34,216 nt of DNA from a virus. Lineage: Duplodnaviria; Heunggongvirae; Uroviricota; Caudoviricetes. Position 1 is the first letter of the stretch, and each line of letters opens with the position of its first letter. The notes beneath the pieces were generated by a model. That model worked only from the letters and a program-made list of their open reading frames with translations, was not told the DNA's origin and ran no database searches. This document shows, piece by piece, positions 17,229 to 32,962 of this stretch. Position numbers and translations under genes: made by a program. The stretch lies in IMG/VR virus record IMGVR_UViG_3300029181_000137; one strand, written 5' to 3'.

Positions 17229-18281
17229 TTATTTCCCCACCAGTTCACTTACCTCTTTCGCCGTCTGGTTAAACCGTTCTGACTCAAGCTCAACACCTAA
17301 CGCCCGACGCCCCAGCGCCATTGCTGCTTTTATTGTGGAACCGGATCCCATAAAGAAATCAGCAACCAGATCGCCTGGCCGACTACTGGCATTGATTATT
17401 TGTCGGAGCATATCCGCTGGTTTCTCACACGGATGTTTACCCGGGTAGAACTGAACGGGGTTATGCATCCAGACATCGGTATAAGGCACGGAGACTGATA
17501 CGGAGAAATAGCGCCGGAGAGATTTAAACTCATCCAGCAATTCAGAATATTTGCGATTCAGTGAATCATAAGATGCCACCAGCTGGTGGTGTGGTTGTTC
17601 CAGTTGTTGTTTCTGAAACTTCTCTGCCGCTATACGGGAAAAAAGTGCCTGCAACTTCCGGTAGTCAGCCTCATTCGGCAACTGCCACTGACTGGCACCA
17701 AACCAGTGGGAAACCATATTTTTCTTACCTGTGGCTTCGGCAATCTGTTTTGCCGTTATACCCAGTTCGGCACGAGCATCCCTGAAATACGATATCAGCG
17801 GTGCCATTATGTGCTGTTTGAGTTCCCTTTCTTTTGCCGCATAGCCGTCACTTTTGCCGCGATATGGCCCCTGGTAATGTTCAGCAAACAGAACGCGCTC
17901 TGTGGCAGGAAAATATGCGCGCAAACTTTCTTTATTACACCCATTCCATCGTCCGGACGGCTTCGCCCAGATGATATGGTTAAGCACATTGAAACGTTCA
18001 CGCATCATGATCTCGATATCAGATGCCAGGCGATGTCCACAGAACAGGTAAAGGCTTCCGGCAGGTTTCAACACCCGCCAGAACTGGGCCAGACAGTGGT
18101 CCAGCCACTTAAGGTAATCTTCGTCCCCTTTCCACTGATTGTCCCAGCCGTTGGGCTTCACTTTGAAGTACGGTGGATCGGTAACAATCAGATCAATGGA
18201 GTCATCAGGCAGGGACTGAATAAAATGCAGGCAATCAGCGTTGATTAAATCAACACTGTTTATTTTTACAGTATTTTTCAT
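17229..18281 (-). CDS. Orphan DNA methyltransferase, beta-class (N6-adenine or N4-cytosine)
   Basis: 350-aa ORF with DPPY catalytic motif near the N-terminus (LIVTDPPYF) and AdoMet motif FxGxG near the C-terminus (DFFMGSGST); no adjacent restriction gene. Confidence 0.85.
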   Translation of the reverse strand: MKNTVKINSVDLINADCLHFIQSLPDDSIDLIVTDPPYFKVKPNGWDNQWKGDEDYLKWLDHCLAQFWRVLKPAGSLYLFCGHRLASDIEIMMRERFNVLNHIIWAKPSGRWNGCNKESLRAYFPATERVLFAEHYQGPYRGKSDGYAAKERELKQHIMAPLISYFRDARAELGITAKQIAEATGKKNMVSHWFGASQWQLPNEADYRKLQALFSRIAAEKFQKQQLEQPHHQLVASYDSLNRKYSELLDEFKSLRRYFSVSVSVPYTDVWMHNPVQFYPGKHPCEKPADMLRQIINASSRPGDLVADFFMGSGSTIKAAMALGRRALGVELESERFNQTAKEVSELVGK

Positions 18282-18416
18282 GGATCAGTAAGCGTAACTC
18301 TGGTAGGCTCACTCTGCTTTTGCGCTAAAGCAGTGGGCCATGGTTCGCTTGTGACCAGTAAGCATGAGCGAATGGCTGGCAGGTGCTACCAACACCCACC
18401 AGCCGCCCATTTTCAC

Positions 18417-18443
18417 AAATTAAAAGCCCTTCATTGCTGAAGG
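18417..18443 (-). terminator. Intrinsic terminator-like hairpin at the end of the small ORF
   Basis: Minus strand CCTTCA-GCAA-TGAAGG followed by GCTTTTAATTT; overlaps the stop codon of ORF 18431..18649. Confidence 0.4.
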
Positions 18444-18649
18444 CGTCTGTAACAGCCGAACTGGTAATCTACCAGCCCCGCCATAACCAGCTGGGTCAGT
18501 ATTAACTGACAGCGTTCGCGTGAAAGGTATGTGTTTTGTGCAATCTCCCCGACTGTTGCCGGTTCGATGCTTAATTCATTAAAAACAACTTTTGCCGTTT
18601 CTGTCATATCTTGCTGTTTTAGCATGTCTTTTTCCCTTCTGGTTAACAT
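18431..18649 (-). CDS. Small hypothetical protein
   Basis: 72-aa ORF in late-operon orientation between the cargo cassette and the methyltransferase; no recognisable family. Confidence 0.45.
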   Translation of the reverse strand: MLTRREKDMLKQQDMTETAKVVFNELSIEPATVGEIAQNTYLSRERCQLILTQLVMAGLVDYQFGCYRRLQQ

Positions 18650-18747
18650 GACATACCAATAACTCTTGTCTAAAAAGCCAGCAAGATAAAAAGTCAGTAT
18701 TCACGACCACCAGCGTGTTTACCGTACTGCTCTTGGTTTACAGGTAC

Positions 18748-18768
18748 AAAAAAACCGCTCGACGGCGG
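18748..18768. terminator. Short GC hairpin flanked by A7/T7 runs
   Basis: AAAAAAA-CCGC-TCGACG-GCGG; reads as stem plus T7 on the minus strand; weak 4-bp stem. Confidence 0.3.
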
Positions 18769-18870
18769 GTTTAAGCTGTGTGGCGAAGTAACCACTCTTA
18801 ACAGATTATGATAGTTTTTGCGTACGCGTTAGTAATTTATTATGCTCTTTACAATTGTTAGCTTAACCGC

Positions 18871-20037
18871 ATGGAATTGACCAAAAAAATGAGCAAAGCA
18901 AGCATACGCCACGTAATCGTTCATGAGCTCTTAAAAGAATCTAATAAAGACTTCGATCACTCCAAACCATACAATCTTCGTGATACAGAACTAGATAAAA
19001 CAAATGATATAGTAAAAAAATTAGTAGACGGTGTTATTGATTTGTATGGTTCAAAAGGGAACTCAGCGCATTATGGTGTTTTTATTAAAAATAAAACAAA
19101 GCAAGGCCCTATACCAGAACTATTTCATAAATACTCTTTAGTTCAACAATCTGTTTCAAGTGATTTCATTGAATTATCGAAGGAAGTTATGAAACAAATG
19201 TATAAATCTGCTCAAGAGCAGATTTGGGCTTCTGGAGGATATGTTGTTTTTACTGATTATATTTTATCTGGTTTCCGTTATCTATTGGTTACAATGATCA
19301 AAAAAACTAATGGCGTAACTATTAGTGAAAATTTAGAGCCAGAGGAAATGATTCACTTAGAACTTGGTAATATTAACCAAGCAGCAAAAATAAATTTCAG
19401 ATATTATGAAGAATACCAAAAAGCAGATGACTTAAAAAAAACAGAGTTAAGTTATCTAAGCTTTATAAGCAAAACTACGGGACAGTCAGCGGCAGCATAT
19501 TTTATAGCAGCATTAGGATGTGACAAGGGGATTGCTTCAGCAGGTGCAACCCGTAAGTTACCAGATGAAATAAGGCGTTTCTTTAAGAAAGAACCTCTTT
19601 TAAAAAATCAAGCAGAGTCATTTAGAAATGATGTTATCAAATACTTAGAAAAGCAATTTGACAACGAGCACTCTGCAAGGCTTTCTGATATCGAATCGCT
19701 TGCTTCAGGCCATATGTCCTATTTAAAAGAGGAAGAAAAAACAGAACTTGTTGATAAATTAATGAAACACCTCAATAGTGAGGAAGTCAGAATCCCATCA
19801 GAGTTCGTAATCAATAAAAACTCCTTAGATAAAATCCGCAATGTGATATATAAAACTCCATCATTGAGCTTTCACTTCGACAAGGATTTACTCGGTGTCA
19901 CAACTGATGCTAAAATATATTATGATGACGAAAACCAAAGCCTAACATTTAATAATTTGCCTGTTGAAGCATTAACTAAGATAAGAAGAGCGTTGAAAGA
20001 AACTGATAACCCGAGTAACGAAGAAGATAAAGAATGA
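18871..20037 (+). CDS. NdpA/YejK-family (NA37) nucleoid-associated-like protein, cargo gene A
   Basis: 388-aa ORF; blocks alignable by eye to E. coli YejK (GGYVVFTDY..RYLLV...ISENLE; YLSFISKTTGQSAAAYFIAALG; FHFDKDLLG); about 30-35% GC by eye; opposite strand to phage genes. Confidence 0.8.
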   Translation: MELTKKMSKASIRHVIVHELLKESNKDFDHSKPYNLRDTELDKTNDIVKKLVDGVIDLYGSKGNSAHYGVFIKNKTKQGPIPELFHKYSLVQQSVSSDFIELSKEVMKQMYKSAQEQIWASGGYVVFTDYILSGFRYLLVTMIKKTNGVTISENLEPEEMIHLELGNINQAAKINFRYYEEYQKADDLKKTELSYLSFISKTTGQSAAAYFIAALGCDKGIASAGATRKLPDEIRRFFKKEPLLKNQAESFRNDVIKYLEKQFDNEHSARLSDIESLASGHMSYLKEEEKTELVDKLMKHLNSEEVRIPSEFVINKNSLDKIRNVIYKTPSLSFHFDKDLLGVTTDAKIYYDDENQSLTFNNLPVEALTKIRRALKETDNPSNEEDKE

Positions 20038-21260
20038 ATGATTTTAGTATAATAGTTAATCTGTATAGATTATCAAGCTATCCTCATTTTGACGGGGCTA
20101 AGTTTTCTGCGCGTATAGCTTATAATGCAGACGTAAAATCATTGTTCAAAAGAATTTTGAACCCTACTTTTCAAGCTGGTACAGCTGACGAAATAGAGGT
20201 GGATGGTCATTTAATTTATGATTATGAAGACTTTCCTGAAAAGGGAAATTTTCTTACATACTCGTTTAAAATTTCACAAGGAAGTGCGAATCGTTTTTAT
20301 AAAAATAAAAACGAGTTTGTAAAAATAAACACGCTCAAGAAAGGCATAATGCCAGAGTATTTCTATATTATAGAGGATGATTTCTATTCATTAGAAACAC
20401 CAAAACCTTCTTATATCCAAAAAATTGAGGACATTTGTGAGCTAATCAATGCTCTTTCCATGCTTGCTCATTTCCATGATATAAAAAAAGATAGCAAAGG
20501 TACATTTTATCGTTTAGTCTTTATTTTAAACTCAGAGTCTAAATCTTCTTCTGCTGTAATTGAAACAAATATTACAGAAGAAATTTTTAATGATAAAACA
20601 GTAAATACTCAGTTAGTTAAAACATTAGTAAGTAGTGAAGCTACTACTGATGCCCATCATATTGAAAAGATTAACACTTTCAGAAACACAGTTATTGAGT
20701 ATGTTAATAAAAATGGAAATTCCTTTGTCGAGTTAATTAACAAGTGGGATTTCATATGCGAACTTTATACGAACAACTTAGCTGCTTATATGTCGGCATT
20801 TTCTTTTCATAAAGCAAGGAAAGAAGTTGTTGATGCTGAACTCGATTACTCAGAAAAACTGTCAAAAATAATTTCAGAAATTTCTAACAAAGCTCTTGCC
20901 ATACCTATTTCACTAGCTGGTTCAATTGCTATTTTTAAATTAACAACAAAAGCTGATTGGATTATTGCTTTAATTGGATTGATTATCACAGCAATAATAA
21001 CATCTGCAATGATTGTGTCACAAAAAAAACAACTTGCTCGTATTTCACACTCTAAAGAAATACTTTTTGGACAATTAAGATATAGAATAAAGGATGACAC
21101 CAGCGATCTTAAAGAGAGCTTAGAAGAGGCTATTAAAAAATTAAATGACAATGAGGATTTTTGTCATAAGGTGCTTGACAGTTTATTATCACTAGCATGG
21201 ATGCCTACATTCATAGGCATCATCGGTATTTTATTTAAATTAATGCCAAATATTACTTGA
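20034..21260 (+). CDS. Membrane protein with three C-terminal TM helices, cargo gene B
   Basis: 408-aa ORF, ATGA start/stop overlap with gene A; hydrophobic segments LAIPISLAGSIAIFKL, WIIALIGLIITAIITSAMIVS, LLSLAWMPTFIGIIGILFKLM; AT-rich. Confidence 0.8.
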   Translation: MNDFSIIVNLYRLSSYPHFDGAKFSARIAYNADVKSLFKRILNPTFQAGTADEIEVDGHLIYDYEDFPEKGNFLTYSFKISQGSANRFYKNKNEFVKINTLKKGIMPEYFYIIEDDFYSLETPKPSYIQKIEDICELINALSMLAHFHDIKKDSKGTFYRLVFILNSESKSSSAVIETNITEEIFNDKTVNTQLVKTLVSSEATTDAHHIEKINTFRNTVIEYVNKNGNSFVELINKWDFICELYTNNLAAYMSAFSFHKARKEVVDAELDYSEKLSKIISEISNKALAIPISLAGSIAIFKLTTKADWIIALIGLIITAIITSAMIVSQKKQLARISHSKEILFGQLRYRIKDDTSDLKESLEEAIKKLNDNEDFCHKVLDSLLSLAWMPTFIGIIGILFKLMPNIT

Positions 21261-22611: not shown

Positions 22612-23442
22612 TCAATGAACGGTATCGAGCAGCTTTAACAGCTCAGGGAATCGGGATTCGAAGAAATGCGGCTGCGTCTCGCGCGGATTTGCGGGACTGG
22701 TGATGTTCTTGCCGAACATGCAGCCTTTCGCTGTCAGCGACCAGAATTTTTTGATGTTATTAATCGCGGTACGGCTGTATCGTTCACGTTGCTCAACGAT
22801 CCCCAGCTTCGCCATCTGGTGATATGCCTGATTAGCCGTCAGGCGGATACCATACTGTTTCAGCAGTGCACTCAGTGACAGTGTCGGGCGACTTGAGCCA
22901 TCGTGTGCATCAGCAGGAGCATCAATGGCATAGCGCGGTGCCAGATTAGGTAAGCCAACAGCCTCCTGGAGTTTCTGGCAGGCACCAAGCACTGATGAGT
23001 TAGACAGGTTTAACTCCCGACGCATAAAGTCCAGCAGAATCACACCAGCCTGCATCTTGTCAGCAGCCTGTCCTGATAATTTTTCCGGTGCGCTGGTTAC
23101 CATATCGAAAGTACGGATCACCTTCAGATGGAATGACGGGCTTATCCACATTGCATAGGCATACACCAGTTCTTTGCAGACATACGTCCCCTGGTTATTT
23201 CCGCCACGAATAACGTTAACTGACTCTATATTGACCGAGTTGCAAATCTGCAACTCGCTTATTAAACGTTCAGTTTGCTCATTGCGGAGCCAGAATGCAG
23301 GCTTATGCTTATCCAGAGAACCGGCAGCCCTGTGCAGATCGTTCAGGCTGTAACGCCCATAAGCATCACGACGAACTTCAATACCATCAATGACCATCAG
23401 ATTATTCATACTTCGTTTCTCCTCTTGATCAGGCGGCTGCAC
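22612..23442 (-). CDS. KilA-N domain protein (putative antirepressor-like)
   Basis: 276-aa ORF; N-terminal segment IDGIEVRRDAYGRYSLNDLHRAAG...KPAFWLRNEQTERLISEL resembles KilA-N. Confidence 0.65.
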   Translation of the reverse strand: MQPPDQEEKRSMNNLMVIDGIEVRRDAYGRYSLNDLHRAAGSLDKHKPAFWLRNEQTERLISELQICNSVNIESVNVIRGGNNQGTYVCKELVYAYAMWISPSFHLKVIRTFDMVTSAPEKLSGQAADKMQAGVILLDFMRRELNLSNSSVLGACQKLQEAVGLPNLAPRYAIDAPADAHDGSSRPTLSLSALLKQYGIRLTANQAYHQMAKLGIVEQRERYSRTAINNIKKFWSLTAKGCMFGKNITSPANPRETQPHFFESRFPELLKLLDTVH

Positions 23443-23818
23443 CCGCCGTTTTCTCGTACTTACTGATAGTGATCTCGACCTTCCCTTCCGGGATAACCGG
23501 TCCCCACTCCACCAGCATTCTTTTCACCTGGCTGTCGTCTTCCCACACACCCGCGTGGGTCAGGGCGTCAAACAGCGCCTTGTTATAGTTGTCCAGATCG
23601 CGGATCCGGTTATCCGGAGGAAACAACACGATCTCCACTGAAGCAGGTGCCGACGTTGGTTTCGGCAGACGACGTAACTGCTCAATGATGGCGGCACACG
23701 CCGCGCCCTGGAATTTGCGCCCCGCCGCGCTTATCAGGCTCTTACCTGCAAACGCCCCTTTGTTGGGGTGTCGCCAGTACGTATTCACGCTGGGCGGAAA
23801 AGGCAGAATCAGCTTCAT
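23429..23818 (-). CDS. rusA: Holliday junction resolvase RusA
   Basis: 129 aa; PPSVNTYWRH...DLDNYNKALFDALTHAGVWEDDSQV matches RusA signature with catalytic Asp residues. Confidence 0.85.
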   Translation of the reverse strand: MKLILPFPPSVNTYWRHPNKGAFAGKSLISAAGRKFQGAACAAIIEQLRRLPKPTSAPASVEIVLFPPDNRIRDLDNYNKALFDALTHAGVWEDDSQVKRMLVEWGPVIPEGKVEITISKYEKTAGAAA

Positions 23819-24141
23819 ACTTTCAGGCCCCTCTCATGTAACCAGTAGGCTGCACGCAGCCTGGCGTTTTCCTCACCGGCAAGCAGTGAGCGGATAATCC
23901 CGACCGCCTCGCTGTCGTCATCCTTCACCGCGGTATGAAGAGTTATCCCCCGGGCCACGCCACGCTTTATCGTGATGACGCCTTTTTTCTCCAGTGCGCG
24001 AAGATGCTCTACCGCTGCATTCACTGAATGGTATCCCAGCATGGTTGCCACCTCCTGATTGGTTGGCGGAAAGCCACGCTCTTTCTGATAAGAAATCAGC
24101 ATATCCAGCACCTGCTGCTGGCATTGAGTTAACGTCGTCAT
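23815..24141 (-). CDS. LexA-type DNA-binding-domain protein lacking peptidase domain
   Basis: TQCQQQVLDMLISYQKERGFPPTNQEVATMLGYHSVNAAVEHLRALEKKGVI parallels LexA N-terminal winged helix; start set at MTTLTQ, where TAATG overlaps the upstream stop; ORF track start 24174. Confidence 0.6.
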   Translation of the reverse strand: MTTLTQCQQQVLDMLISYQKERGFPPTNQEVATMLGYHSVNAAVEHLRALEKKGVITIKRGVARGITLHTAVKDDDSEAVGIIRSLLAGEENARLRAAYWLHERGLKV

Positions 24142-24635
24142 TACGCCCCCACGTAATTCCCTGACAGATACCACTCATCACTCGATACAGCGCGCTTGCT
24201 GCTTTTCCGTAAACACTGCTCACGACGCGCCAGAAAATTGTTTCGTTCTGGCTGGGAGTGGCTTTCACGGAATGCCGCCATCCACACGGTTGCAGCACGA
24301 CGGTATAAGCCCCTTGACTCCAGTTCTTCAGCCTGGCGGGTCAGGCACAAAATCACCCGGGGATCGTTAGTGCCGACATAGAAATTGCGCACAGGTCTGG
24401 TTTCACGAACTGGTTGTGGTTCCGGCTCCTGCGCTCTCTCAGTCAGGCGCGGGAAATGTCTGCGTGTATCCCCTTCACAACGGTGAGCCACACGCCCACT
24501 CTGACGTAACTTGCTTGCTGACTGCAGAACGCGCTGCCGTGAGTAACCTGCAAAAGCATCCGCAATGTCTCCGGAAGTACACCCCGGATGGGCTTCAATG
24601 AATTTCTGAACGTCATTCAAAAGACTCATAATCAC
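24141..24635 (-). CDS. PerC-like (Pch-like) regulator domain protein
   Basis: 164-aa ORF; C-terminal AEELESRGLYRRAATVWMAAF...ARREQCL resembles the PerC family pattern as I remember it. Confidence 0.5.
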   Translation of the reverse strand: MIMSLLNDVQKFIEAHPGCTSGDIADAFAGYSRQRVLQSASKLRQSGRVAHRCEGDTRRHFPRLTERAQEPEPQPVRETRPVRNFYVGTNDPRVILCLTRQAEELESRGLYRRAATVWMAAFRESHSQPERNNFLARREQCLRKSSKRAVSSDEWYLSGNYVGA

Positions 24636-25573
24636 CCCCTGAATCCTGCCGGGATCTGGCTGTAGTCCACGTTGTCGTAACTGGCTTTAAAGTACGGGTC
24701 TTCGCGTTTTTCTGTGTACGTGCTGACGGACGGTGATAAGCGCAGGGAAAGTTCATCCCATTTTTCCCGCAATTTCGATGGGCTGAGGACGTTACGGCAC
24801 CAGAACGGGTCACGACTGACGCGGCTGTACATCTCGCAGATTTGTTTGTGAGTGCGACCATCCTGAACACACATCAGGCGAATTTCGTTTGCCCAGGCTG
24901 TCCAGTTTGGTTCTTTGGGACGAACCACCTCGCCGTCACATTCGGCGGCCTGCTCGTACAGGGCAATGATTTTTTTCCAGATCCACTGTGCGCAGGTCAA
25001 ATCATCCTGCGTTCCCCACTGGCGCTTTTTAGGGCTGAATACAACCGCATCAGGATGGCGAGTTAAAAAATCCTGTTCATCCTTCTTCATGTCCGGTTGC
25101 GAAGCGTCCGGACGAGAGGTTTTTTTATCTGACGGATCATGTTTTGATTTTACTGACGGATCCCCGCCAGATTCTGACGGGTGAAAACCCGCTTTTTTGC
25201 CAGATTTCGACGCATCATATTTTGACGGGTCAGATTTTAATGCGTCAGATTTTGACGGGTCAGAATCTGACAGTTGAGAAAATGCCGCGGCCTGAAGCTT
25301 CGCAACGTTAAGCTGATAAACATTCGACGCATTGCGGTTACCCTGGCGACGCGCCTTACGCGTTAACCAGCCTTCTGCTTCCAGCCGTGCGATAGCCGTC
25401 CTGACGGTACTCATCCCCGCGCCAATCTGGCGGGCAATGGTTTCAATTGATGGCCAGCACACACCTTCGTCATTACTGAAATCAGCCAGGCGGGCCATAA
25501 TTGCCACGCTGGATAATTTCATGCCTGACGCTGCGCAACCATCCCATACATAGCCGGTTAATTTAGTGCTCAT
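24632..25573 (-). CDS. Replication initiator, lambda O-like (HTH N-domain, low-complexity linker)
   Basis: 313-aa ORF; N-terminal HTH typical of phage replication proteins; DPSK-rich linker encoded by the iteron repeats; first large gene after the cro module. Confidence 0.75.
   Translation of the reverse strand: MSTKLTGYVWDGCAASGMKLSSVAIMARLADFSNDEGVCWPSIETIARQIGAGMSTVRTAIARLEAEGWLTRKARRQGNRNASNVYQLNVAKLQAAAFSQLSDSDPSKSDALKSDPSKYDASKSGKKAGFHPSESGGDPSVKSKHDPSDKKTSRPDASQPDMKKDEQDFLTRHPDAVVFSPKKRQWGTQDDLTCAQWIWKKIIALYEQAAECDGEVVRPKEPNWTAWANEIRLMCVQDGRTHKQICEMYSRVSRDPFWCRNVLSPSKLREKWDELSLRLSPSVSTYTEKREDPYFKASYDNVDYSQIPAGFRG
25121..25270. repeat. Iteron-like direct repeats inside the O-like gene (candidate ori)
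   Basis: At least five copies of (T)CTGACGG(G) at 25128, 25153, 25174, 25221, 25251, including two identical 14-mers TTTGACGGGTCAGA 30 bp apart, plus inverted copies. Confidence 0.55.
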
Positions 25574-25582
25574 GACCGACCT

Positions 25583-25921
25583 CTATTTCCCTGAATTTAC
25601 GACGAAACTGTTCGAGCGGGCTGAAGCACTCATGCTCATAGCCTTCACGGAGGTAGATAACCCGTTGTGTTTCCGGCTCCCAACGAATGACTCTGACGGG
25701 CACTCCGTAGTGATCTTTGAACCAGCGGTTAACTTGTCGCAAAGGACTGTCTCCTTCTGCCGGTTGAAATCCCCCACAGCCCACTCTGCAAAGCTGTGGG
25801 TTACAATTTCCCTGTCACCTGGTACATTCACTGCATAGCAATACTCCACCTTCGCTTTTCCACCCGGTACAGGAAGCGCAATCAGTTGCGAGCGACGGTA
25901 GTGTGTTGTTAAACTGTTCAT
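25583..25921 (-). CDS. Hypothetical protein between cII-position gene and O (frame uncertain)
   Basis: 112-aa ORF with ATGA coupling to the upstream gene and a stop 9 nt before the O start; a competing 73-aa ORF (25563..25784) overlaps in another frame. Confidence 0.35.
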
Positions 25922-26481
25922 GCGTTAGTTTCTCCACAGTCACGACACGCCACGGCGCCCGGAGCTGCACACTCGCGGGCGTCATTACTTTCTGAAATGC
26001 AAAAAATTTTGTAGACCAGTGCTGCATGCTCCTGCAGCTTCGAAATTGAGAGGTACAGCTCGTCGTTAATTGCTGTCTTCTCATGCGGTTCCACTACACC
26101 GTCTTCAATTGCTGAACGAATCTGTTTTGAATAACTGCCGATCTGTTCAATGACCTCCAGCAGGCGCTGGTTAATATCGGCGTTGTCCACATCCTCGACG
26201 TCAGGAAGAGACACAAAGACGCCATTTGCAGACTGCGCCACAGCATCAGCAATGAAGTGAGTGCCACCAGCACGCTGTAAAACCATTGCCCATCCCAGCG
26301 GGAAAATCTGATCGCCATCTGCACGAAGGCGGTTGAATAAAGCGTTTTCTGTTACATCGAGCCAGTCAGCCGCTTCAGCGTAACCACCCGGCAACGCCGC
26401 GATAGTTTTTCTGACAGCTTTCACGTACCACTCAGGCTGTTTTTCTATTTTCCAGTGATGCTTACCCACGATTAGCCTCAT
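25918..26481 (-). CDS. Hypothetical early protein in cII position
   Basis: 187-aa ORF immediately downstream of cro; no family recognised. Confidence 0.55.
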
Positions 26482-26512
26482 CGTTCTGTGGTTAAAAATT
26501 GAAAGTGTTCTG

Positions 26513-26713
26513 CTAATCTTTCGGATAGATATCCGGTCTTAAGTCAGATTTCGTAATTGCACCTGACGTGCATTGCTCAAGTTTTTTAGCCAGCACAAAA
26601 CTGGCTTTTTTATAGCCATTGAAAACCAGCCGTAAGTAGCCAGGTGTTGAGCCAACTTTTCCGGCCAACTCGCCCTGCTGTTCTTTGGTTAAAGAGTCCC
26701 AATACACTTTCAT
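26513..26713 (-). CDS. cro: Cro-like HTH regulator
   Basis: 66-aa product from internal Met (MKVYWDSLTKEQQGELAGKVGSTPGYLRLVFNG...) with GGAGG SD; divergent from cI; the longer ORF-track version would run through the operators and into cI. Confidence 0.7.
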   Translation of the reverse strand: MKVYWDSLTKEQQGELAGKVGSTPGYLRLVFNGYKKASFVLAKKLEQCTSGAITKSDLRPDIYPKD

Positions 26714-26803
26714 ACAATATGTACCTCCGGTATACATATTACATGATTGAAATGAACCTTCAAGATACTTGTACCTTAACGGTACAAGGGTTTTAATTTT
26801 GTT
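26714..26803. promoter_or_regulatory. cI/cro intergenic region: OR-like operators and candidate pR
   Basis: Perfect 21-bp palindrome CTTGTACC-TTAAC-GGTACAAG at 26768..26788; imperfect ATATGTACC...GGTATACAT at 26717..26737; minus-strand TTGAAG-16-TAATAT (26736..26763). Confidence 0.65.
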
Positions 26804-27478
26804 ATGAAAACAATCCATGACATCCGGCGGTCTAACGCCAGAAAACTGAGAGATGGTGTTGGCGGGAATTCTTCCTTTGCCACTATGATTGATCGCGAGC
26901 CAACCCAGACCAGCAGGTTTATGGGAGATGGTGCTACTAAAAATATCGGTGACAGCATGGCACGACACATCGAAAAATGTTTCGACCTGCCTGTCGGATG
27001 GCTCGATCAAGAACACCAGACAACGAACATCACAAAAAAACCTGATGTTTCAATCACTAATAAACAAATCACATTAGTCCCTGTCATATCATGGGTACAG
27101 GCCGGAGCATGGAAAGAAGTTGGATATTCTGAGGTTGATTTGAGCACAGCAGAAACGTATCCCTGCCCTGTCCCCTGTGGGGAAATGACTTATATCTTGC
27201 GGGTGATAGGTGATTCAATGATTGATGAGTACCGCCCGGGAGACATGATTTTTGTCGATCCTGAAGTACCTGCCTGCCACGGTGACGACGTTATTGCATT
27301 GATGCACGATACAGGTGAAACCACCTTCAAAAGGTTGATAGAAGATGGGACACAGCGTTATCTCAAAGCGTTAAACCCAAACTGGCCTGAGCCTTACATT
27401 AAGATCAACGGTAATTGCTCTATAATTGGTACAGTGATTTTCTCAGGAAAACCAAGAAGATACAAAATCAAAGCCTAA
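26804..27478 (+). CDS. cI: CI-type repressor (HTH plus S24 LexA-like autopeptidase domain)
   Basis: 224 aa; C-terminal domain with GDSM motif (VIGDSMIDEYRPGDMIFVD) and downstream Lys (TFKRL); divergent from cro. Confidence 0.9.
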   Translation: MKTIHDIRRSNARKLRDGVGGNSSFATMIDREPTQTSRFMGDGATKNIGDSMARHIEKCFDLPVGWLDQEHQTTNITKKPDVSITNKQITLVPVISWVQAGAWKEVGYSEVDLSTAETYPCPVPCGEMTYILRVIGDSMIDEYRPGDMIFVDPEVPACHGDDVIALMHDTGETTFKRLIEDGTQRYLKALNPNWPEPYIKINGNCSIIGTVIFSGKPRRYKIKA

Positions 27479-27491
27479 TCAATGTTTATGA

Positions 27492-27513
27492 ACCTGCTTC
27501 GGCAGGTTTTTTT
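27492..27513 (+). terminator. Intrinsic terminator after cI
   Basis: ACCTGC-TTCG-GCAGGT followed by TTTTTTT, 14 nt after the cI stop. Confidence 0.65.
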
Positions 27514-27517
27514 ATAC

Positions 27518-27549
27518 TTGACAATGTACCTTTGAGATACATAATGTAC
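27518..27549 (+). promoter_or_regulatory. Candidate pL with OL-like operator half-sites
   Basis: TTGACA (27518..27523)-16 nt-CATAAT; two ATGTACC half-sites (27523..27529, 27543..27549) sharing the TGTACC motif of the OR palindromes. Confidence 0.5.
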
Positions 27550-27636
27550 CCAAGCGAAACAACAAACAGGCAGGTCGTCCACGAAGTAGCCGCCTGGGGC
27601 ATATGAAGTCCAGGATGATTCGTTAGCAACAAAAAA

Positions 27637-27667
27637 GCGCCCTACAGGACGCTTAGCTCTTTAACAA
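27637..27667 (+). promoter_or_regulatory. nut-like element: hairpin plus boxA-like GCTCTTTAACAA
   Basis: GCTCTTTAACAA at 27656..27667 matches the remembered boxA core of rrn operons; preceded by imperfect hairpin GCGCCC-TACA-GGACGC. Confidence 0.4.
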
Positions 27668-27712
27668 TCTGGTCCCCTTCAACAAGTAACTGATAACTTG
27701 AGGAGGTGTGAA

Positions 27713-27919
27713 ATGCACAAAACAGAACCCAAAATCGTCGCGCCTGGCTACACAGATGAGGAAATTTATGAGTGGATGACAAAGAAGCTGGCAGCTATAA
27801 ACCAGCTTCGTGAAGTGCTGTCTTATCGACAGGAAACAATAGACTCCTTAAAAAAACTGGATCAGGAAATCACGGTTTTATCACAGGATGTTACTTTAGA
27901 TATTGTGCAGACAAATTAG
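27713..27919 (+). CDS. First pL-operon ORF, small acidic hypothetical protein
   Basis: 68-aa product from MHKTEPK with strong SD GAGGAGGTG; no Arg-rich motif, so not a recognisable N. Confidence 0.5.
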   Translation: MHKTEPKIVAPGYTDEEIYEWMTKKLAAINQLREVLSYRQETIDSLKKLDQEITVLSQDVTLDIVQTN

Positions 27920-28325
27920 GATCCCATTCATTTTCGTCAAAATCATCAAAGTGATGAATTTGTGATCTCCAGTCTCGATAATCTAAAAATTTCTGGGCGG
28001 TTACGCTTATTTTATCAAGCGTGAGTTCATCCTGAATTGAAAGAAGAAGTTCATCAAATTTCATCTCATTAATCTGCTTTGGCATCCAGTGATGCTTCAT
28101 CAGAATAAGGTGAACCAGAGCCTTTTTCCCATTCAACTGATTATAGGGAGTGCCGAATTTCTTCCGGTGCTCATGTAAGACAAGGTCCAGAAGAGTAAGT
28201 AATGTTGCCCTTGATTCAACTTTACTTATTTCGACTGATGACACTACCCCACTGATTTCAATGCCCCGATACTTTCCAACATTTTCACAGTGGGATTTGT
28301 ACAACGTGTAGATATTACCGGACAT
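27891..28325 (-). CDS. AT-rich hypothetical protein in the immunity region
   Basis: 144-aa ORF, about 35% GC by eye, good SD (AAAGGAAAAG), convergent with and overlapping the 3' end of the pL-proximal ORF. Confidence 0.6.
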   Translation of the reverse strand: MSGNIYTLYKSHCENVGKYRGIEISGVVSSVEISKVESRATLLTLLDLVLHEHRKKFGTPYNQLNGKKALVHLILMKHHWMPKQINEMKFDELLLSIQDELTLDKISVTAQKFLDYRDWRSQIHHFDDFDENEWDPNLSAQYLK

Positions 28326-28340
28326 TTCTTTTCCTTTTGC

Positions 28341-28392
28341 GTTGTTGGGGATAACCAGATTAACCGAATCCTTGTTGTTGGGGAATAACCAG
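28341..28392. repeat. Two direct repeats upstream of the 144-aa gene
   Basis: GTTGTTGGGGATAACCAG (28341..28358) and GTTGTTGGGGAATAACCAG (28374..28392), 15-bp spacer. Confidence 0.5.
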
Positions 28393-28655
28393 GTCCACCT
28401 CGCCTGATGTGGCTAAAAGCAGGCACATAACAGCTAAGTATTTTCAACCAGAGAGAATTCTTAGCGTTGTGGTGAATGCGGCTCAGCGCACGCGGGTTAA
28501 GGTTGAGGCTGACAGTCGACCTTCTGTAGATACCCACCCGCCTGGTGTGCAACCTTCGCCAGGCACCGGGAGGCACCCGGCACCACAACTTTATGCTGTG
28601 TGTAGTCCTGGCGGTACCAGCTTGTACTCTTGCTTCCGGCTGGTACCGTCCTTTT

Positions 28656-28745
28656 TACAAAACAGAGAAGAGCATCACCGGACGACGGGCTCATAACCCA
28701 ATCCATCCGGGCGGCTGCCACCGCAGGTGTTCTTCTCTGTTTTGT
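28656..28745 (+). ncRNA. Long structured RNA element in the early-left leader (function unknown)
   Basis: 18-bp stem ACAAAACAGAGAAGAGCA (28657..28674) with TGTTCTTCTCTGTTTTGT (28728..28745); the single non-Watson-Crick position is a G-U pair only on the + strand transcript; 53-nt GC-rich interior with sub-hairpins. Confidence 0.4.
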
Positions 28746-28793
28746 GGAGAAACTAATCGGCCTTGCAGGGTCGATATGATGAGGAGCAGCAAA

Positions 28794-29156
28794 ATGGCTA
28801 GCGAACGCAGTACTGATGTGCAGGCATTTATCGGGGAGCTGGACGGCGGCGTATTTGAAACCAAAATCGGCGCAGTTCTCAGTGAAGTCGCTTCCGGTGT
28901 GATGAACACGAAAACCAAAGGTAAGGTCTCACTCAACCTGGAAATCGAACCATTTGATGAGAACCGTGTGAAAATCAAACACAAACTCTCATATGTTCGC
29001 CCGACTAACCGCGGGAAAATTTCCGAAGAAGACACCACCGAAACGCCGATGTATGTCAATCGCGGTGGTCGCCTGACTATTCTGCAGGAAGACCAGGGAC
29101 AGTTACTGACTCTTGCCGGTGAACCTGACGGAAAACTCCGCGCAGCAGGTCGTTAA
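28794..29156 (+). CDS. yfdP: YfdP-like prophage protein
   Basis: 120-aa product from MASERSTDVQ with GAGGAG SD; first of five consecutive genes whose lengths (120/274/178/120/101 aa) match the CPS-53 yfdPQRST set as I remember it. Confidence 0.6.
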   Translation: MASERSTDVQAFIGELDGGVFETKIGAVLSEVASGVMNTKTKGKVSLNLEIEPFDENRVKIKHKLSYVRPTNRGKISEEDTTETPMYVNRGGRLTILQEDQGQLLTLAGEPDGKLRAAGR

Positions 29157-29221
29157 TATCGTTTTTAATTAACTGATTATTTATCTCATCACTGAATATC
29201 TTTATATAGTGAGGACTTATT

Positions 29222-30046
29222 ATGTCTCAGAACTTAGACGCAACCGCAATTAATCAAATCCATGCCCTTATTTCTGCTCAGGGTGTTAATGAAATTATCA
29301 GTAAGATTGGTGCCGATGCTGTGGCATTGCCTGAGAATTTCCGCATTCATGATCTGGAAAAATTTAATTTAAATCGCTTCCGTTTCCGTGGTGCGCTTTC
29401 CACTGCCAGCATCGATGACTTTACCCGTTATTCTAAAGATCTTGCAGATGAAGGCACCCGCTGCTTTATCGATGCTGATAATATGCGTGCCGTCAGTGTG
29501 CTTAACCTGGGTACTATTGATGAACCAGGTCACGCAGATAACACCGCCACACTCAAACTGAAAAAGACAGCACCGTTCTCTGCTCTGTTGTCTGTTAACG
29601 GCGAGCGTAACTCCCAGAAGTCACTGGCAGAATGGATTGAAGACTGGGCCGACTATCTTGTGGGCTTTGATGCTAATGGTGACGCTATTCAGGCAACAAA
29701 AGCGGCTGCGGCTGTCCGTAAAATCACGATTGAAGCAAACCAGACCGCTGATTTTGAAGATAATGACTTCAGCGGCAAACGCTCCCTGATGGAGTCTGTC
29801 GAAGCGAAGACCAAAGACATTATGCCAGTGGCATTTGAATTTAAATGCGTTCCGTTTGAAGGTCTGAAAGAACGTCCGTTTAAATTACGCCTCAGTATTA
29901 TCACTGGCGATCGTCCTGTACTGGTTCTGCGCATTATTCAGCTGGAGGCGGTGCAGGAAGAAATGGCTAACGAATTTCGTGATCTGCTTGTTGAGAAATT
30001 CAAGGACAGCAAAGTAGAAACCTTTATTGGTACTTTCACCGCCTGA
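29222..30046 (+). CDS. yfdQ: YfdQ-like protein (DUF2303-like)
   Basis: 274-aa ORF following yfdP-like gene; size and synteny. Confidence 0.65.
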
Positions 30047-30058
30047 TTTCATTACTGC

Positions 30059-30082
30059 AAATGCCCCTGCGGGGGCATTTAT
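30059..30082 (+). terminator. Hairpin between yfdQ-like and yfdR-like genes
   Basis: AAATGCCCC-TGC-GGGGCATTT perfect 9-bp stem followed by ATGG; weak U-tract. Confidence 0.35.
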
Positions 30083-30173
30083 GGAAACGTAATTTACTCA
30101 ATAATCGCCGGATGGTGAGGGATTCTTTTTACCAGAATTCAGCGCGGTGCAGCGCATATACGTGGAGAACAAA

Positions 30174-30710
30174 ATGTCATTTATTAAAACTTTTTCCGGG
30201 AAGCATTTTTATTATGACAGGATAAATAAAGACGACATCGATATTAACGATATCGCGGTTTCCCTTTCAAATATCTGTCGCTTTGCCGGTCATCTTTCGC
30301 ACTTCTACAGCGTCGCCCAACATGCGGTTCTTTGCAGCCAGCTGGTGCCGCAGGAATTTGCTTTTGAAGCGTTAATGCATGATGCAACAGAAGCGTATTG
30401 CCAGGACATTCCCGCACCACTGAAACGCCTTCTTCCTGACTATAAACAAATGGAAGAAAAAATAGACGCCGTAATCCGTGAGAAATACGGGTTACCCCCG
30501 GTTATGAGTACGCCCGTGAAATATGCCGATCTCATCATGCTGGCAACCGAACGCCGCGATCTCGGGCTTGATGATGGCTCTTTCTGGCCTGTACTGGAAG
30601 GTATCCCGGCAACAGAGATGTTCAACGTGATTCCACTGGCACCGGGCCATGCCTACGGGATGTTTATGGAACGCTTTAACGAGTTATCGGAGTTACGCAA
30701 ATGCGCATGA
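30174..30710 (+). CDS. yfdR: HD-domain 5'-deoxynucleotidase, YfdR-like
   Basis: 178-aa product from MSFIKTF with GGAGAA SD; HD motif context (CRFAGHLSHFYSVAQHAVLCS...LMHDATEAY). Confidence 0.75.
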   Translation: MSFIKTFSGKHFYYDRINKDDIDINDIAVSLSNICRFAGHLSHFYSVAQHAVLCSQLVPQEFAFEALMHDATEAYCQDIPAPLKRLLPDYKQMEEKIDAVIREKYGLPPVMSTPVKYADLIMLATERRDLGLDDGSFWPVLEGIPATEMFNVIPLAPGHAYGMFMERFNELSELRKCA

Positions 30711-31063
30711 ATGTTTTCGAAATGGAAGGGTTTCTTCGTGGGAGATGTGTACCGCGAGATCTGAAAGTAAATGAAACAGATGCTGAATACCTGGTGCGTA
30801 AATTCGATGCGCTTGAAGCTAAATGTGCAGCACAGGAAAACAAAGTAATACCAGTGTCAACTGAACTGCCACCAGCAAATGAAAGTGTTTTGTTATTCGA
30901 TGCTAACGGAGAAGGCTGGCTAATTGGCTGGCGTTCTCTCTGGTACACCTGGGGACAAAAAGAAACCGGAGAATGGCAGTGGACATTTCAGGTCGGGGAC
31001 CTTGAAAACGTCAATATCACTCACTGGGCAGTAATGCCAAAAGCACCGGAGGCTGGAGCATAA
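30701..31063 (+). CDS. yfdS: YfdS-like protein
   Basis: 120-aa ORF overlapping the yfdR-like stop; size and synteny. Confidence 0.55.
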   Translation: MRMNVFEMEGFLRGRCVPRDLKVNETDAEYLVRKFDALEAKCAAQENKVIPVSTELPPANESVLLFDANGEGWLIGWRSLWYTWGQKETGEWQWTFQVGDLENVNITHWAVMPKAPEAGA

Positions 31064-31368
31064 TGACCACTTTTACCGACAAAGAACTGATTAAAGAAAT
31101 TAAAGAGCGTATCAGCAGCCTTGACGTGCGAGACGATATTGAGCGCCGTGCTTATGAAATCGCACTCCTATCTCTGGAAGTAGAACCAGATGAACGCGAA
31201 GCTTATGAATTATTCATGGAAAAGCGTTTCGGTGACTTAGTAGATCGTCGGAGAGCAAAAAACGGCGATAACGAATACATGGCATGGGATATGACTCTCG
31301 GTTGGATCGTCTGGCAGCAACGAGCTGGTATCCATTTTTCAACAATGTCACAGCAAGAGGTGAAATAA
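31063..31368 (+). CDS. yfdT: YfdT-like protein
   Basis: 101-aa ORF, ATGA-type overlap with yfdS-like; size and synteny. Confidence 0.55.
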   Translation: MTTFTDKELIKEIKERISSLDVRDDIERRAYEIALLSLEVEPDEREAYELFMEKRFGDLVDRRRAKNGDNEYMAWDMTLGWIVWQQRAGIHFSTMSQQEVK

Positions 31369-31718
31369 TGGAGCCATACAGCCTCACACTCGATGAGGCC
31401 TGTCATTTTCTCAAGATATCCAGACCGACTGCCATTAACTGGATACGCACAGGGCGTCTTCAGGCAACACGCAAAGATCCCACTAAGAATAAATCTCCTT
31501 ACCTCACAACACGACAAGCCTGCATTGCGGCGCTTCAGTCTCCGCTGCATACTGTCCAGGTGAGCGCGGGTGATGGCATAACAGAGGAAAGAAAATGTCA
31601 CTCTTCCGCAGAGGTGAAATATGGTACGCCAGTTTCACATTGCCGAACGGTAAAAGATTTAAACAGTCTCTTGGAACAAAGGACAAAAGGCAGGCGACAG
31701 AACTCCATGACAAGCTAA
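31368..31718 (+). CDS. xis: Excisionase (HTH_17/Xis family)
   Basis: 116-aa product from [33 protein letters not shown] with TAATG coupling and AAGAGG SD; overlaps the int start by about 120 nt. Confidence 0.65.
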
Positions 31719-32758
31719 AGGCTGAAGCATGGCGGGTCAGCAAACTTGGTGAAATACCTGATATAACGTTCGAGGAAGCGTGTGTCAGGTGGCTTGAAGA
31801 GAAAGCACATAAAAAATCACTGGACGATGACAAAAGCCGGATCGGATTCTGGCTTCAACATTTCGCAGGAATGCAACTAAGAGACATTACTGAATCAAAA
31901 ATTTATTCAGCAATGCAGAAAATGACGAACCGGCGTCATGAGGAAAACTGGAAACTCAGGGCAGAAGCATGCAGAAAAAAAGGGAAACCTGTTCCAGAAT
32001 ACACGCCAAAACCAGCGTCCGTTGCAACGAAGGCTACGCATCTTTCATTTATAAAGGCCCTACTAAGAGCCGCAGAGCGTGAATGGAAAATGCTGGATAA
32101 GGCACCAATTATTAAAGTGCCTCAACCAAAGAATAAACGGATCCGCTGGCTGGAGCCCCATGAAGCACAAAGGCTGATTGATGAATGTCCGGAGCCATTA
32201 AAGTCTGTTGTTGAATTTGCACTGGCAACAGGCTTAAGACGCTCGAACATCATCAACCTTGAATGGCAACAAATAGATATGCAGCGCCGGGTGGCATGGA
32301 TAAACCCGGAAGAGAGTAAATCAAACCGCGCAATTGGCGTTGCGCTGAATGATACTGCATGTCGCGTATTGAAAAAACAAATCGGGAATCATCACCGTTG
32401 GGTATTTGTGTACAAGGAAAGCTGTACCAAACCAGACGGAACGAAAGCGCCAACAGTAAGGAAGATGCGGTATGACGCAAACACAGCCTGGAAAGCGGCG
32501 CTGAGACGGGCTGGTATTGATGATTTCAGATTTCACGACTTGAGACACACCTGGGCAAGTTGGCTGGTTCAAGCCGGAGTCCCGTTGTCAGTTTTACAGG
32601 AAATGGGAGGCTGGGAGTCTATCGAAATGGTTCGTCGATATGCTCACCTTGCACCTAATCACCTTACCGAACACGCACGGCAAATAGACTCGATCCTGAA
32701 CCCATCGGTCCCAAATTTGTCCCAGTCAAAAAATAAGGAAGGTACTAATGATGTGTAA
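31595..32758 (+). CDS. int: Tyrosine integrase, P22-type
   Basis: 387 aa; C-terminal catalytic region with HDLRHTWAS and RRYAHLA (catalytic Tyr); ends 15 bp from the tRNA-Thr 3' end. Confidence 0.95.
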
Positions 32759-32772
32759 CTTATTGATTTTAA

Positions 32773-32848
32773 TGGTGCCGATAATAGGAGTCGAACCTAC
32801 GACCTTCGCATTACGAATGCGCTGCTCTACCAACTGAGCTATATCGGC
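32773..32848 (-). tRNA. thrW: tRNA-Thr (anticodon CGT), integration target
   Basis: Minus strand reads GCCGATATAGCTCAGTTGGTAGAGCAGCGCATTCGTAATGCGAAGGTCGTAGGTTCGACTCCTATTATCGGCACCA; anticodon loop ATTCGTAAT; encoded CCA end. Confidence 0.9.
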
Positions 32849-32962
32849 CCTGAAAGGACATGTTCACGAACGTGAATCACGGTGGACAAGGTTAAAACTA
32901 ACCGGGCGATGCGTCAATGGCCTTGTGAATCAAATGGCTACTTTTGCATCACCCGGTTTTAT

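What the first reader, a model, noticed from the sequence alone, without database searches (positions are those of the whole stretch)
25121..25270. Iteron array inside the replication initiator gene (candidate origin, lambda ori-in-O arrangement)
Five or more direct copies of a TGACGG core, two identical 14-mers and inverted copies are clustered in the part of the gene encoding a DPSK-rich low-complexity linker, mirroring lambda where ori iterons sit inside O. No P/DnaC-like helicase loader gene is recognisable downstream, so the initiator may recruit host functions differently.
Basis: partly seen in the sequence, partly recalled or inferred. Interest (0 to 1): 0.45.

Follow-up and report, generated by a model that had tools for sequence, protein, structure and literature searches.

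The report
Replication origin inside prophage initiator gene
A cluster of short palindromic DNA repeats inside the replication-initiator gene of this common E. coli/Shigella prophage is very probably the phage's replication origin, built like that of phage lambda, in a phage type that has no helicase-loader gene of its own.

Summary
The repeats are real and far beyond chance. The gene 24632-25573 (- strand) encodes a lambda-O-like initiator: a winged-helix N-domain, a disordered linker and a C-domain 36% identical to that of lambda O. The linker DNA carries six copies of a 13-bp palindrome, GTCARAATCTGAC, five of them in strict 15-bp phase. No other copy occurs in the 34-kb window.

In 69 homologues from about 30 genera, third codon positions are much more conserved in the linker than in the folded N-domain (p = 1e-10). 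That points to selection on the DNA itself.

The repeats follow the N-domain whatever C-domain is attached. A phage with the same C-domain but another N-domain has different repeats at the same place. This is the classical lambdoid ori-in-O arrangement: a new member of a known kind, untested by experiment.

No P, DnaC or DnaB gene lies between cro and Q in the window. Such O-only lambdoid phages were flagged in 2025 as not understood.

New lead: the initiator ends in SQIPAGFRG, the C-terminal motif of host DnaT. None of 42 initiators with this tail has a loader gene downstream.

The parts
24632..25573 (-). Initiator gene (313 aa), lambda-O-like; homologue of Shigella phage SfIV gp41 and SfII 'O protein', and of the E. 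coli K-12 CPS-53 remnant next to yfdN
   Evidence: ORF. PHROG 391 'replication initiation O-like', E 1.6e-135 over the full length. 97% identical to SfIV and SfII. A match is present in 2725 of 5426 complete E. coli genomes.
25280..25573 (-). Codons 1-98: winged-helix DNA-binding domain (HTH_36), the inferred iteron reader
25259..25271 (-). Iteron 1: GTCAGATTCTGAC, a perfect 6+1+6 palindrome
25244..25256 (-). Iteron 2: GTCAAAATCTGAC
   Evidence: 15 bp from iteron 1.
25229..25241 (-). Iteron 3 (degenerate): ATTAAAATCTGAC
   Evidence: in 15-bp phase.
25214..25226 (-). Iteron 4 (degenerate): GTCAAAATATGAT
   Evidence: in 15-bp phase.
25199..25211 (-). Iteron 5: GTCGAAATCTGGC
   Evidence: in 15-bp phase.
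25166..25178 (-). Iteron 6: GTCAGAATCTGGC, 33 bp from iteron 5, inside a DNA block that is nearly invariant in 69 homologues
25118..25165 (-). Conserved block GGGGATCCGTCAGTAAAATCAAAACATGATCCGTCAGATAAAAAAACC. It holds two further CCGTCAG half-sites and the A+T-richest, least stable 30 bp of the gene (25122-25152, 27% G+C). Candidate unwinding region.
   Evidence: Column conservation. Nearest-neighbour stability profile: only 3.7% of 30-bp stretches in the window are less stable than this one.
24734..25081 (-). Codons 165-280: helical C-terminal domain homologous to the lambda O C-domain, which is the P-binding domain in lambda
   Evidence: BLASTP of residues 131-277 against lambda O residues 139-270: 36% identity, E 7e-26. 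AF2 pLDDT about 90.
24635..24685 (-). Codons 297-313: flexible tail ending SQIPAGFRG. It is an 8/9 match to the extreme C-terminus of E. coli DnaT. Candidate host-factor docking motif.
24141..24635 (-). Downstream gene overlapping the initiator's stop codon (ATGA): PerC-family protein (yfdN-like). It is not a helicase loader and not an obligatory partner.
   Evidence: Pfam PerC, E 8e-10. PHROG 'transcriptional activator'. Absent downstream of many homologues.

Best explanation
The array at about 25118-25271 is the replication origin of this lambdoid (SfII/SfIV/CPS-53-type) prophage. It sits inside its own initiator gene, as ori-lambda sits inside O.

Proposed mechanism:
1. After induction, transcription from the cro-side promoter expresses the initiator.
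2. Dimers of its N-terminal winged-helix domain bind the six 13-bp palindromes (GTCARAATCTGAC, five of them 15 bp apart) and the neighbouring CCGTCAG sites.
3. Packing of many dimers distorts the DNA and opens the adjacent A+T-rich stretch (about 25122-25152).
4. The C-terminal domain and tail then bring in the host replicative helicase.
5. The phage has no P, DnaC or DnaB gene, so this last step must use host proteins. The most likely handle is the DnaT-like C-terminal tail (IPxGFRG).

What is shown: the repeats and their clustering, the domain architecture, homology of the C-domain to lambda O, nucleotide-level constraint on the linker DNA, co-inheritance of the repeats with the N-domain, and absence of a loader gene.

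What is inferred: binding of the initiator to the repeats, strand opening, origin activity, and the role of the tail.
For: - Six sites matching the 13-mer with at most 2 mismatches, all within 106 bp and none elsewhere in 34 kb. Simulations gave a mean of 1.4 sites and a largest cluster of 2.
- The perfect copy is a 6+1+6 palindrome, as expected for a dimeric reader.
- The repeats occupy the disordered interdomain linker, directly upstream of a C-domain 36% identical to lambda O. Lambda's annotated iterons hold the same position.
- In 69 homologues from about 30 Enterobacterales genera, third-codon-position entropy is 1.38 bits in the N-domain and 0.71 bits in the linker (Mann-Whitney p = 1e-10). 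First and second positions are alike in the two regions, at 0.38 and 0.47 bits.
- In those homologues all 297 sites lie in the linker, and 165 of 229 neighbour spacings are exactly 15 bp.
- The array is present with either of two unrelated C-domains: 53 Phg_2220_C-type and 14 lambda-O-type.
- Phage mEp460_4F5 has the same C-domain (94% DNA identity up to window position 25131) but another N-domain. It carries five or six different 23-nt repeats at the same place, followed by an A+T-rich stretch.
- The least stable 30 bp of the gene abuts the array.
Against: - No experiment exists for this family.
- The A+T-rich stretch is short (about 30 bp, 27% G+C) and is not an outlier: 3.7% of 30-bp stretches in the window are less stable.
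- The 15-bp spacing is tighter than in lambda (20-24 bp) and is always a multiple of three. The array therefore also behaves as an in-frame tandem repeat with variable copy number.
- The two palindrome registers (6+1+6 and 6+2+6) cannot be told apart from sequence.
- No DnaA box lies nearby and no loader gene is present, so the helicase-loading step is unexplained.
- The homologues are related and the prophages are mosaic, so the conservation statistics are not based on independent samples.
Confidence: 0.78

Rival explanations
1. The repeats are only a by-product of a repetitive, low-complexity protein linker (S-K-S-D-X units) that expands and contracts by slippage. The DNA has no function.
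For: The units are in frame and 15 nt long. Copy number varies among homologues. The encoded segment is predicted to be disordered.
Against: Serine is encoded almost always by TCA and TCT, and lysine by AAA, across about 30 genera whose N-domain third positions are close to saturated. The non-repeated block TTTTSACCCGTCAGAATCTGGSGGGGATCCGTCAGTAAA is nearly invariant at all codon positions. In the Providencia/Proteus clade the units change GAC to GTC (Asp to Val), so the peptide is not what is conserved. The unit is palindromic, which a peptide constraint does not explain.
Confidence: 0.06
2. The repeats are real binding sites for the initiator or another protein, but they serve something other than initiation. 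Candidates are autoregulation of the operon, copy-number control or handcuffing, or exclusion of related phages. The true origin would lie elsewhere.
For: Iterons in plasmids also act in control. A weak promoter-like match lies in the array at 25263-25234. The A+T-rich stretch is modest.
Against: No second cluster of the motif exists anywhere in the 34-kb window. The position is equivalent to lambda's proven origin, and the relative mEp460_4F5 has repeats followed by an A+T-rich stretch at the same place. Promoter-like matches are not above chance.
Confidence: 0.12
3. The conserved linker DNA is a recombination joint. It would be kept similar between phages because it is where N-domain and C-domain modules are exchanged, not because a protein reads it.
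For: Module boundaries fall exactly at the ends of the array. Similarity to mEp460_4F5 stops at 25131 and similarity to phiNP starts at 25095. The last 76 nt of the gene are another widely shared joint.
Against: A joint would not need six phased palindromes. It would not need to change completely when the N-domain changes. Recent exchange would lower divergence at all codon positions, whereas only third positions stand out.
Confidence: 0.04

Closest known systems
ori-lambda inside gene O of phage lambda (and the equivalent origins of phi80, 82, 434 and Stx phage 933W)
   Same: Repeats with dyad symmetry lie in the part of the initiator gene that encodes the interdomain linker, followed by an A+T-rich stretch and then a homologous C-terminal domain (36% identity). 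The repeats are specific to the N-terminal domain. The gene sits in the cro-cII-O operon.
   Different: The N-domain is HTH_36, not Pfam Phage_rep_O. There are six 13-bp sites at 15-bp phase instead of four 18-19-bp sites at 20-24 bp. The A+T-rich stretch is much shorter. There is no P gene. The C-terminal tail is DnaT-like rather than lambda's ...DWIYGVDL.
O-only lambdoid phages (LLS and 34 of 314 Enterobacterales lambdoid phages; Genome Res 2025, PMC12315714) and HTH_36 'Eru' replication regions of Stx phages (PMC8951638)
   Same: The replication module has an O homologue only, with no helicase or loader. LLS is related to mEp460_4F5, which shares this window's C-domain and tail. Eru6 phages share the last 76 nt of the gene.
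   Different: In the passages I searched, those papers do not describe iterons, an origin or the tail motif. I searched for those terms and did not read the papers in full.
Iteron-type plasmid and phage replicons with winged-helix Rep proteins, and DnaD-like replisome organizers of Gram-positive phages
   Different: Here the repeats are inside the coding sequence. There are no DnaA boxes. The fold matches for the C-domain are weak.
E. coli DnaT (primosomal protein i)
   Same: The last nine residues match 8/9, at the very C-terminus in both proteins. Both tail variants of DnaT orthologues (GFRG and GFRGAK) also occur in the phage initiators.

Membership tests
Lambdoid origin inside the initiator gene (ori-lambda type) | Several repeated sites clustered in the initiator gene, in the DNA encoding the interdomain linker | tested here: met
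   Six 13-mers at 25166-25271, in codons 101-136. The linker is disordered in the AF2 model.
Lambdoid origin inside the initiator gene (ori-lambda type) | Each repeat has internal dyad symmetry (dimer site) | tested here: met
   GTCAGA-T-TCTGAC is a perfect palindrome. The family consensus core is TCARAATCTGA.
Lambdoid origin inside the initiator gene (ori-lambda type) | The repeat sequence is specific to the N-terminal domain and changes with it in mosaic relatives | tested here: met
   phiNP and 67 other loci keep the N-domain and the repeats with two different C-domains. mEp460_4F5 keeps the C-domain but has another N-domain and other repeats.
Lambdoid origin inside the initiator gene (ori-lambda type) | Nucleotide-level constraint on the repeats beyond what coding requires | tested here: met
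   Third-position entropy is 0.71 bits in the linker against 1.38 bits in the N-domain, p = 1e-10.
Lambdoid origin inside the initiator gene (ori-lambda type) | A+T-rich unwinding region next to the repeats on the C-domain side | tested here: inconclusive
   25122-25152 is the least stable 30 bp of the gene (27% G+C). Even so, 3.7% of 30-bp stretches in the window are less stable.
Lambdoid origin inside the initiator gene (ori-lambda type) | A P-type or other phage-encoded helicase loader or helicase follows the initiator gene | tested here: not met
   The downstream genes are PerC-like, LexA-like, RusA, KilA-N, DUF968 and Q. No P, DnaC or DnaB is present in the early region or in the annotated near-identical prophage.
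Lambdoid origin inside the initiator gene (ori-lambda type) | The initiator binds the repeats and the fragment supports replication | not testable with these tools
   Needs EMSA or footprinting and an origin-cloning or origin-mapping experiment.
Lambda O protein family | N-terminal Phage_rep_O domain (PF04492) | tested here: not met
   Lambda O hits PF04492 at E 6e-36. The window protein hits HTH_36 instead.
Lambda O protein family | C-terminal domain homologous to lambda O residues about 160-270 | tested here: met
   36% identity over 149 residues, E 7e-26. PHROG 391 and 277 'replication initiation O-like'.
Plasmid-type iteron replicon | Direct repeats of about 17-22 bp at about 22-bp spacing, outside the rep gene, with DnaA boxes | tested here: not met
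   13-bp palindromes at 15-bp phase inside the gene. The only DnaA-box match in the window is at 23142.
DnaT (PF17948) | DnaT domain fold or sequence | tested here: not met
DnaT (PF17948) | C-terminal IPxGFRG motif at the extreme end of the protein | tested here: met
   SQIPAGFRG against SQIPPGFRG. The motif is conserved in DnaT orthologues and nearly invariant in the initiator family.

The most novel reading that the evidence does not exclude
O-only lambdoid phages load the host helicase without any phage loader because their initiators end in a short motif copied from, or converged on, the C-terminus of host DnaT (..PDxxIPxGFRG). Through this tail the origin-bound initiator would plug into the host primosome, by binding DnaB-DnaC or PriA/PriB in DnaT's place. 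The type of C-terminal tail would then be the determinant of which helicase-loading route a lambdoid initiator uses. The observed pairings are a lambda-like DWIYG tail with P, acidic SSB-like tails with DnaC-like loaders, and GFRG tails or a third 'WxxIWK' tail with no loader gene.
Probability: 0.35. Interest if true: 0.7.

Novelty: new member of a known kind. Interest (0 to 1): 0.42.

Why it matters
This initiator gene has a match in about half of complete E. coli genomes. It also occurs in Shigella serotype-converting phages, and related modules occur in Stx and Cdt phages. The records I inspected name it only 'helix-turn-helix protein', 'replication protein O' or 'primosomal protein', with no origin marked.

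Placing the origin gives a concrete fragment for testing replication, incompatibility and induction of these prophages.

The module has no loader gene, a situation stated in 2025 to be 'not yet understood'. The defined origin plus the DnaT-like tail therefore give a directly testable route to how such phages recruit DnaB. They might also show what the unexplained C-terminal tail of DnaT itself does.

Tried and rejected
- DnaA-dependent origin. There is no DnaA box in or near the gene.
- Structured RNA. Rfam returned only a far sub-threshold miRNA-model hit, caused by the inverted repeats.
- Internal promoter or terminator. Promoter-like matches are not above chance. The antisense hairpin at 25178-25191 is not conserved in homologues.
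- PerC-like downstream protein as a hidden P analogue. It is present after only some GFRG-type initiators and absent after phiNP, P0053 and many other loci.
- TGACGG as the iteron core. Comparative data show that the CC/GG dinucleotide is the variable spacer.
- Literature. Searches found no description of iterons or of an origin for SfII, SfIV, CPS-53 or HTH_36 'Eru' initiators, and nothing linking the DnaT tail to phage initiators. The library lacks most subscription journals. I could not locate the 2002 SfV genome paper, so it was not read.

Full report
**What is there.** The finding lies inside a 313-codon ORF on the minus strand, 24632-25573.
- Pfam finds an HTH_36 winged-helix domain at residues 23-70.
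- PHROGs places the whole protein in family 391, 'replication initiation O-like', at E 1.6e-135.
- The gene is 97% identical to gp41 of Shigella phage SfIV and to the 'O protein' of SfII.
- A match is present in 2725 of 5426 complete E. coli genomes. These include truncated remnants next to yfdN in K-12-type genomes.
- The gene order is that of a lambdoid early-right operon. A CI-like repressor lies on the + strand. On the minus strand follow a Cro/YdaS-like gene, a CII-like gene, DUF4222, the initiator, a PerC-like gene, a LexA-like gene, RusA, KilA-N, DUF968 and Q.
- Window 23333-34216 is 99.87% identical to a prophage of E. coli L725, integrated at tRNA-Thr next to proA.

**Check of the observation.**
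- The two 'identical 14-mers' are identical 16-mers.
- Tandem Repeats Finder gives a 15-nt period over 25201-25264.
- On the coding strand the array reads as alternating half-sites GTCARA and TCTGAC. The best description is a 13-bp palindrome, GTCARAATCTGAC.
- Allowing two mismatches there are six sites: 25259, 25244, 25229, 25214 and 25199 in exact 15-bp phase, and 25166. There is none elsewhere in the 34-kb window.
- In 200 first-order Markov simulations the mean total was 1.4 sites, and no simulation had more than two within 120 bp.
- TGACGG is the junction of two palindromes: the start of one, GTCA, plus the CC spacer.

**Position in the protein.** An AlphaFold2 model built on 40 homologues gives four parts:
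- a confident winged-helix domain, residues 1-98;
- a disordered segment, residues 103-159, pLDDT below 50;
- a confident helical domain, residues 165-280;
- a floppy tail.

The repeats occupy codons 101-151, which is the disordered linker. Residues 131-277 align with lambda O residues 139-270 at 36% identity, E 7e-26. In the lambda record the four annotated ori iterons occupy O codons 117-145, followed by the A+T-rich region, directly upstream of that same C-domain. The two arrays are therefore positionally equivalent. The N-domains differ: lambda O hits Pfam Phage_rep_O and the window protein does not.

**Is the DNA itself constrained?** A scan of one genome per bacterial species returned 79 loci encoding relatives of the N-domain. 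They include 72-100% identical ones from about 30 Enterobacterales genera.
- I aligned the first 1.1 kb of 69 genes plus one outgroup.
- Third-codon-position entropy is 1.38 bits over codons 1-99 and only 0.71 bits over codons 100-152 (Mann-Whitney p = 1e-10).
- First and second positions are about equally conserved in the two regions, at 0.38 and 0.47 bits. The usual three-base periodicity of conservation is thus lost in the linker.
- The block TTTTSACCCGTCAGAATCTGGSGGGGATCCGTCAGTAAAWTCAA is almost invariant at every position.
- The positions that vary within the 15-nt units are the two or three bases between palindromes. The core TCARAATCTGA is fixed.
- In the Providencia/Proteus clade the units read TCTGTC instead of TCTGAC, which changes Asp to Val. 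The peptide is therefore not the conserved object.
- This pattern is not what a purely coding repeat would give. Recent recombination would lower divergence at all codon positions, which is not seen.

**Do the repeats go with the DNA-binding domain?** In all 68 homologues that have sites, every one of the 297 sites lies in the linker. Of 229 neighbour spacings, 165 are exactly 15 bp. Copy number ranges from 1 to 7.
- The array is present whether the C-domain is lambda-O-like (14 loci) or the unrelated Phg_2220_C type (53 loci, including Citrobacter phage phiNP).
- Conversely, mEp460_4F5 shares the C-domain (94% DNA identity, ending at window 25131) but has a different N-domain. At the same place it has five or six copies of a different 23-nt repeat, at 23-24-bp spacing. 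An A+T-rich stretch with three 12-nt repeats follows.
- This reasoning from mosaic relatives is, from my own background knowledge, the classical argument that identified lambdoid origins and their specificity. Here it holds in both directions.

**Other origin hallmarks.**
- The least stable 30 bp of the gene is 25122-25152 (27% G+C). It lies on the C-domain side of the array, as in lambda. It is short, and 3.7% of 30-bp stretches in the window are less stable.
- There is no DnaA box nearby.
- There is no Rfam family.
- Promoter-like matches are not above chance.

**Helicase loading.** The gene after the initiator is a PerC-family protein. The rest of the operon up to Q, the near-identical annotated prophage and the window-specific insert hold no P, DnaC or DnaB. 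A 2025 survey states that 34 of 314 Enterobacterales lambdoid phages encode only an O homologue, and that their replication 'is not yet understood' (PMC12315714). This prophage belongs to that class.

**A lead on the missing loader.** The protein ends in SQIPAGFRG, and E. coli DnaT ends in SQIPPGFRG.
- Profile comparison aligns only these last 16 residues, at E 0.0016. The C-domain model does not resemble DnaT's C-domain. The shared element is therefore a terminal motif, not a domain.
- The motif is nearly invariant in the initiator family, while the 25 residues before it vary freely.
- It is attached to both kinds of C-domain.
- It is conserved at the end of DnaT orthologues, including a GFRGAK variant that also occurs in some initiators.
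- Across the fetched loci, none of 42 initiators with a GFRx tail has a lambda-P-like, DnaC-like or Walker-A ORF in the 0.8-1 kb downstream.
- Three further GFRx cases were checked separately and also lack a loader: mEp460_4F5, phiNP and a Klebsiella prophage.
- Initiators of the same family with a lambda-like tail (..DWIYGIEE) are followed by Phage_lambda_P. This holds for P0044 and P0067, as for lambda itself.
- Six loci with other tails are followed by P or by an IstB/DnaC-like ATPase. Pfam confirmed two of them, L047 and L051. The other four (L053, L079, L083, L084) rest on BLAST.
- A third tail type, with a WxxIWK motif, also lacks a loader downstream.
- The samples are related and the downstream window is short, so this is a correlation, not a proof.
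- The papers I could read do not assign a function to DnaT's tail. They say that the way DnaT recruits DnaB-DnaC is unknown (PMC13377028, PMC4132743).

**Verdict.** The array is most likely the phage origin, in the lambda ori-in-O arrangement, with a different DNA-binding domain and different, more tightly phased iterons.
- It is a new member of a known kind, and ordinary for a specialist in lambdoid phages.
- None of the phage or genome records I inspected marks an origin, and none of the papers I could search describes one.
- The more interesting aspect is the loader-less module and the DnaT-like tail, which make a recently posed question experimentally approachable.

Noticed in passing
window 24635-24685 (codons 297-313); also loci L006-L073: The initiator ends in SQIPAGFRG, an 8/9 match to the extreme C-terminus of E. 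coli DnaT. The motif is nearly invariant in the family, sits on two unrelated C-domains, and mirrors both DnaT tail variants (GFRG and GFRGAK).
   Followed up: yes
loci L006-L084, L086-L088: The tail type of the initiator tracks the next gene. None of 42 loci with a GFRx tail has a P/DnaC-like gene downstream. Lambda-like DWIYG tails are followed by Phage_lambda_P. Loci L051 and L083 end in acidic SSB-like tails (TDDDFI, EDIDAMPF) and are followed by IstB/DnaC-like ATPases. A third tail type with a WxxIWK motif (about 23 loci) also has no loader.
   Followed up: partly
window 24632-24707: The last 76 nt of the gene (the tail plus the ATGA overlap with the next gene) are 96-97% identical in many phages whose initiators are otherwise unrelated at DNA level (SfV, mEp460, cdtI, Stx2a_1447, Stx2a_WGPS2, Stx2c phages). 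This looks like a shared module joint.
   Followed up: no
window 25563-25921: Two overlapping same-strand ORFs in different frames both have family support. The 112-aa ORF 25583-25921 hits PHROG 1170 and is annotated as SfIV gp40. The DUF4222 ORF 25563-25784 has a Pfam hit at E 3e-19 and is the one annotated by PGAP. One of the two annotations is probably spurious.
   Followed up: no
window 25178-25191 (+ strand): A terminator-like hairpin, CGGGTGAAAACCCG followed by a T-run, lies antisense to the initiator gene in the middle of the array. Its upstream arm is not conserved in homologues.
   Followed up: partly
window 17229-21260: An insert between Q and the lysis genes is absent from the otherwise similar E. 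coli L725 prophage. It holds a DNA methylase (-), and on the opposite strand an NA37 nucleoid-associated protein homologue and a 408-aa protein with no Pfam hit. It may be a moron or a defence cassette.
   Followed up: no
L003 3491-3667 (phage mEp460_4F5): The initiator gene of mEp460_4F5 has five or six 23-nt repeats (coding-strand consensus CATCGGGTCAAAATG..) at 23-24-bp spacing. Three 12-nt repeats (TACAGAGAATA.) follow in an A+T-rich stretch. This is a second unannotated candidate origin, closer to lambda in its layout.
   Followed up: partly
window 24141-24635 and loci L022, L026, L033, L044, L046, L054, L071: A PerC/ANR-family gene with an N-terminal winged-helix-like part often follows these initiator genes directly, here overlapping the stop codon. 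It is not universal, so it is not an obligatory replication partner. Its role in the replication module is unknown.
   Followed up: partly
window about 32770-34216: The window runs out of the prophage into host DNA. By 99.87% identity to E. coli L725, the integrase is followed by tRNA-Thr and then proA. The early region studied here is therefore about 7 kb from the int-proximal prophage end.
   Followed up: partly
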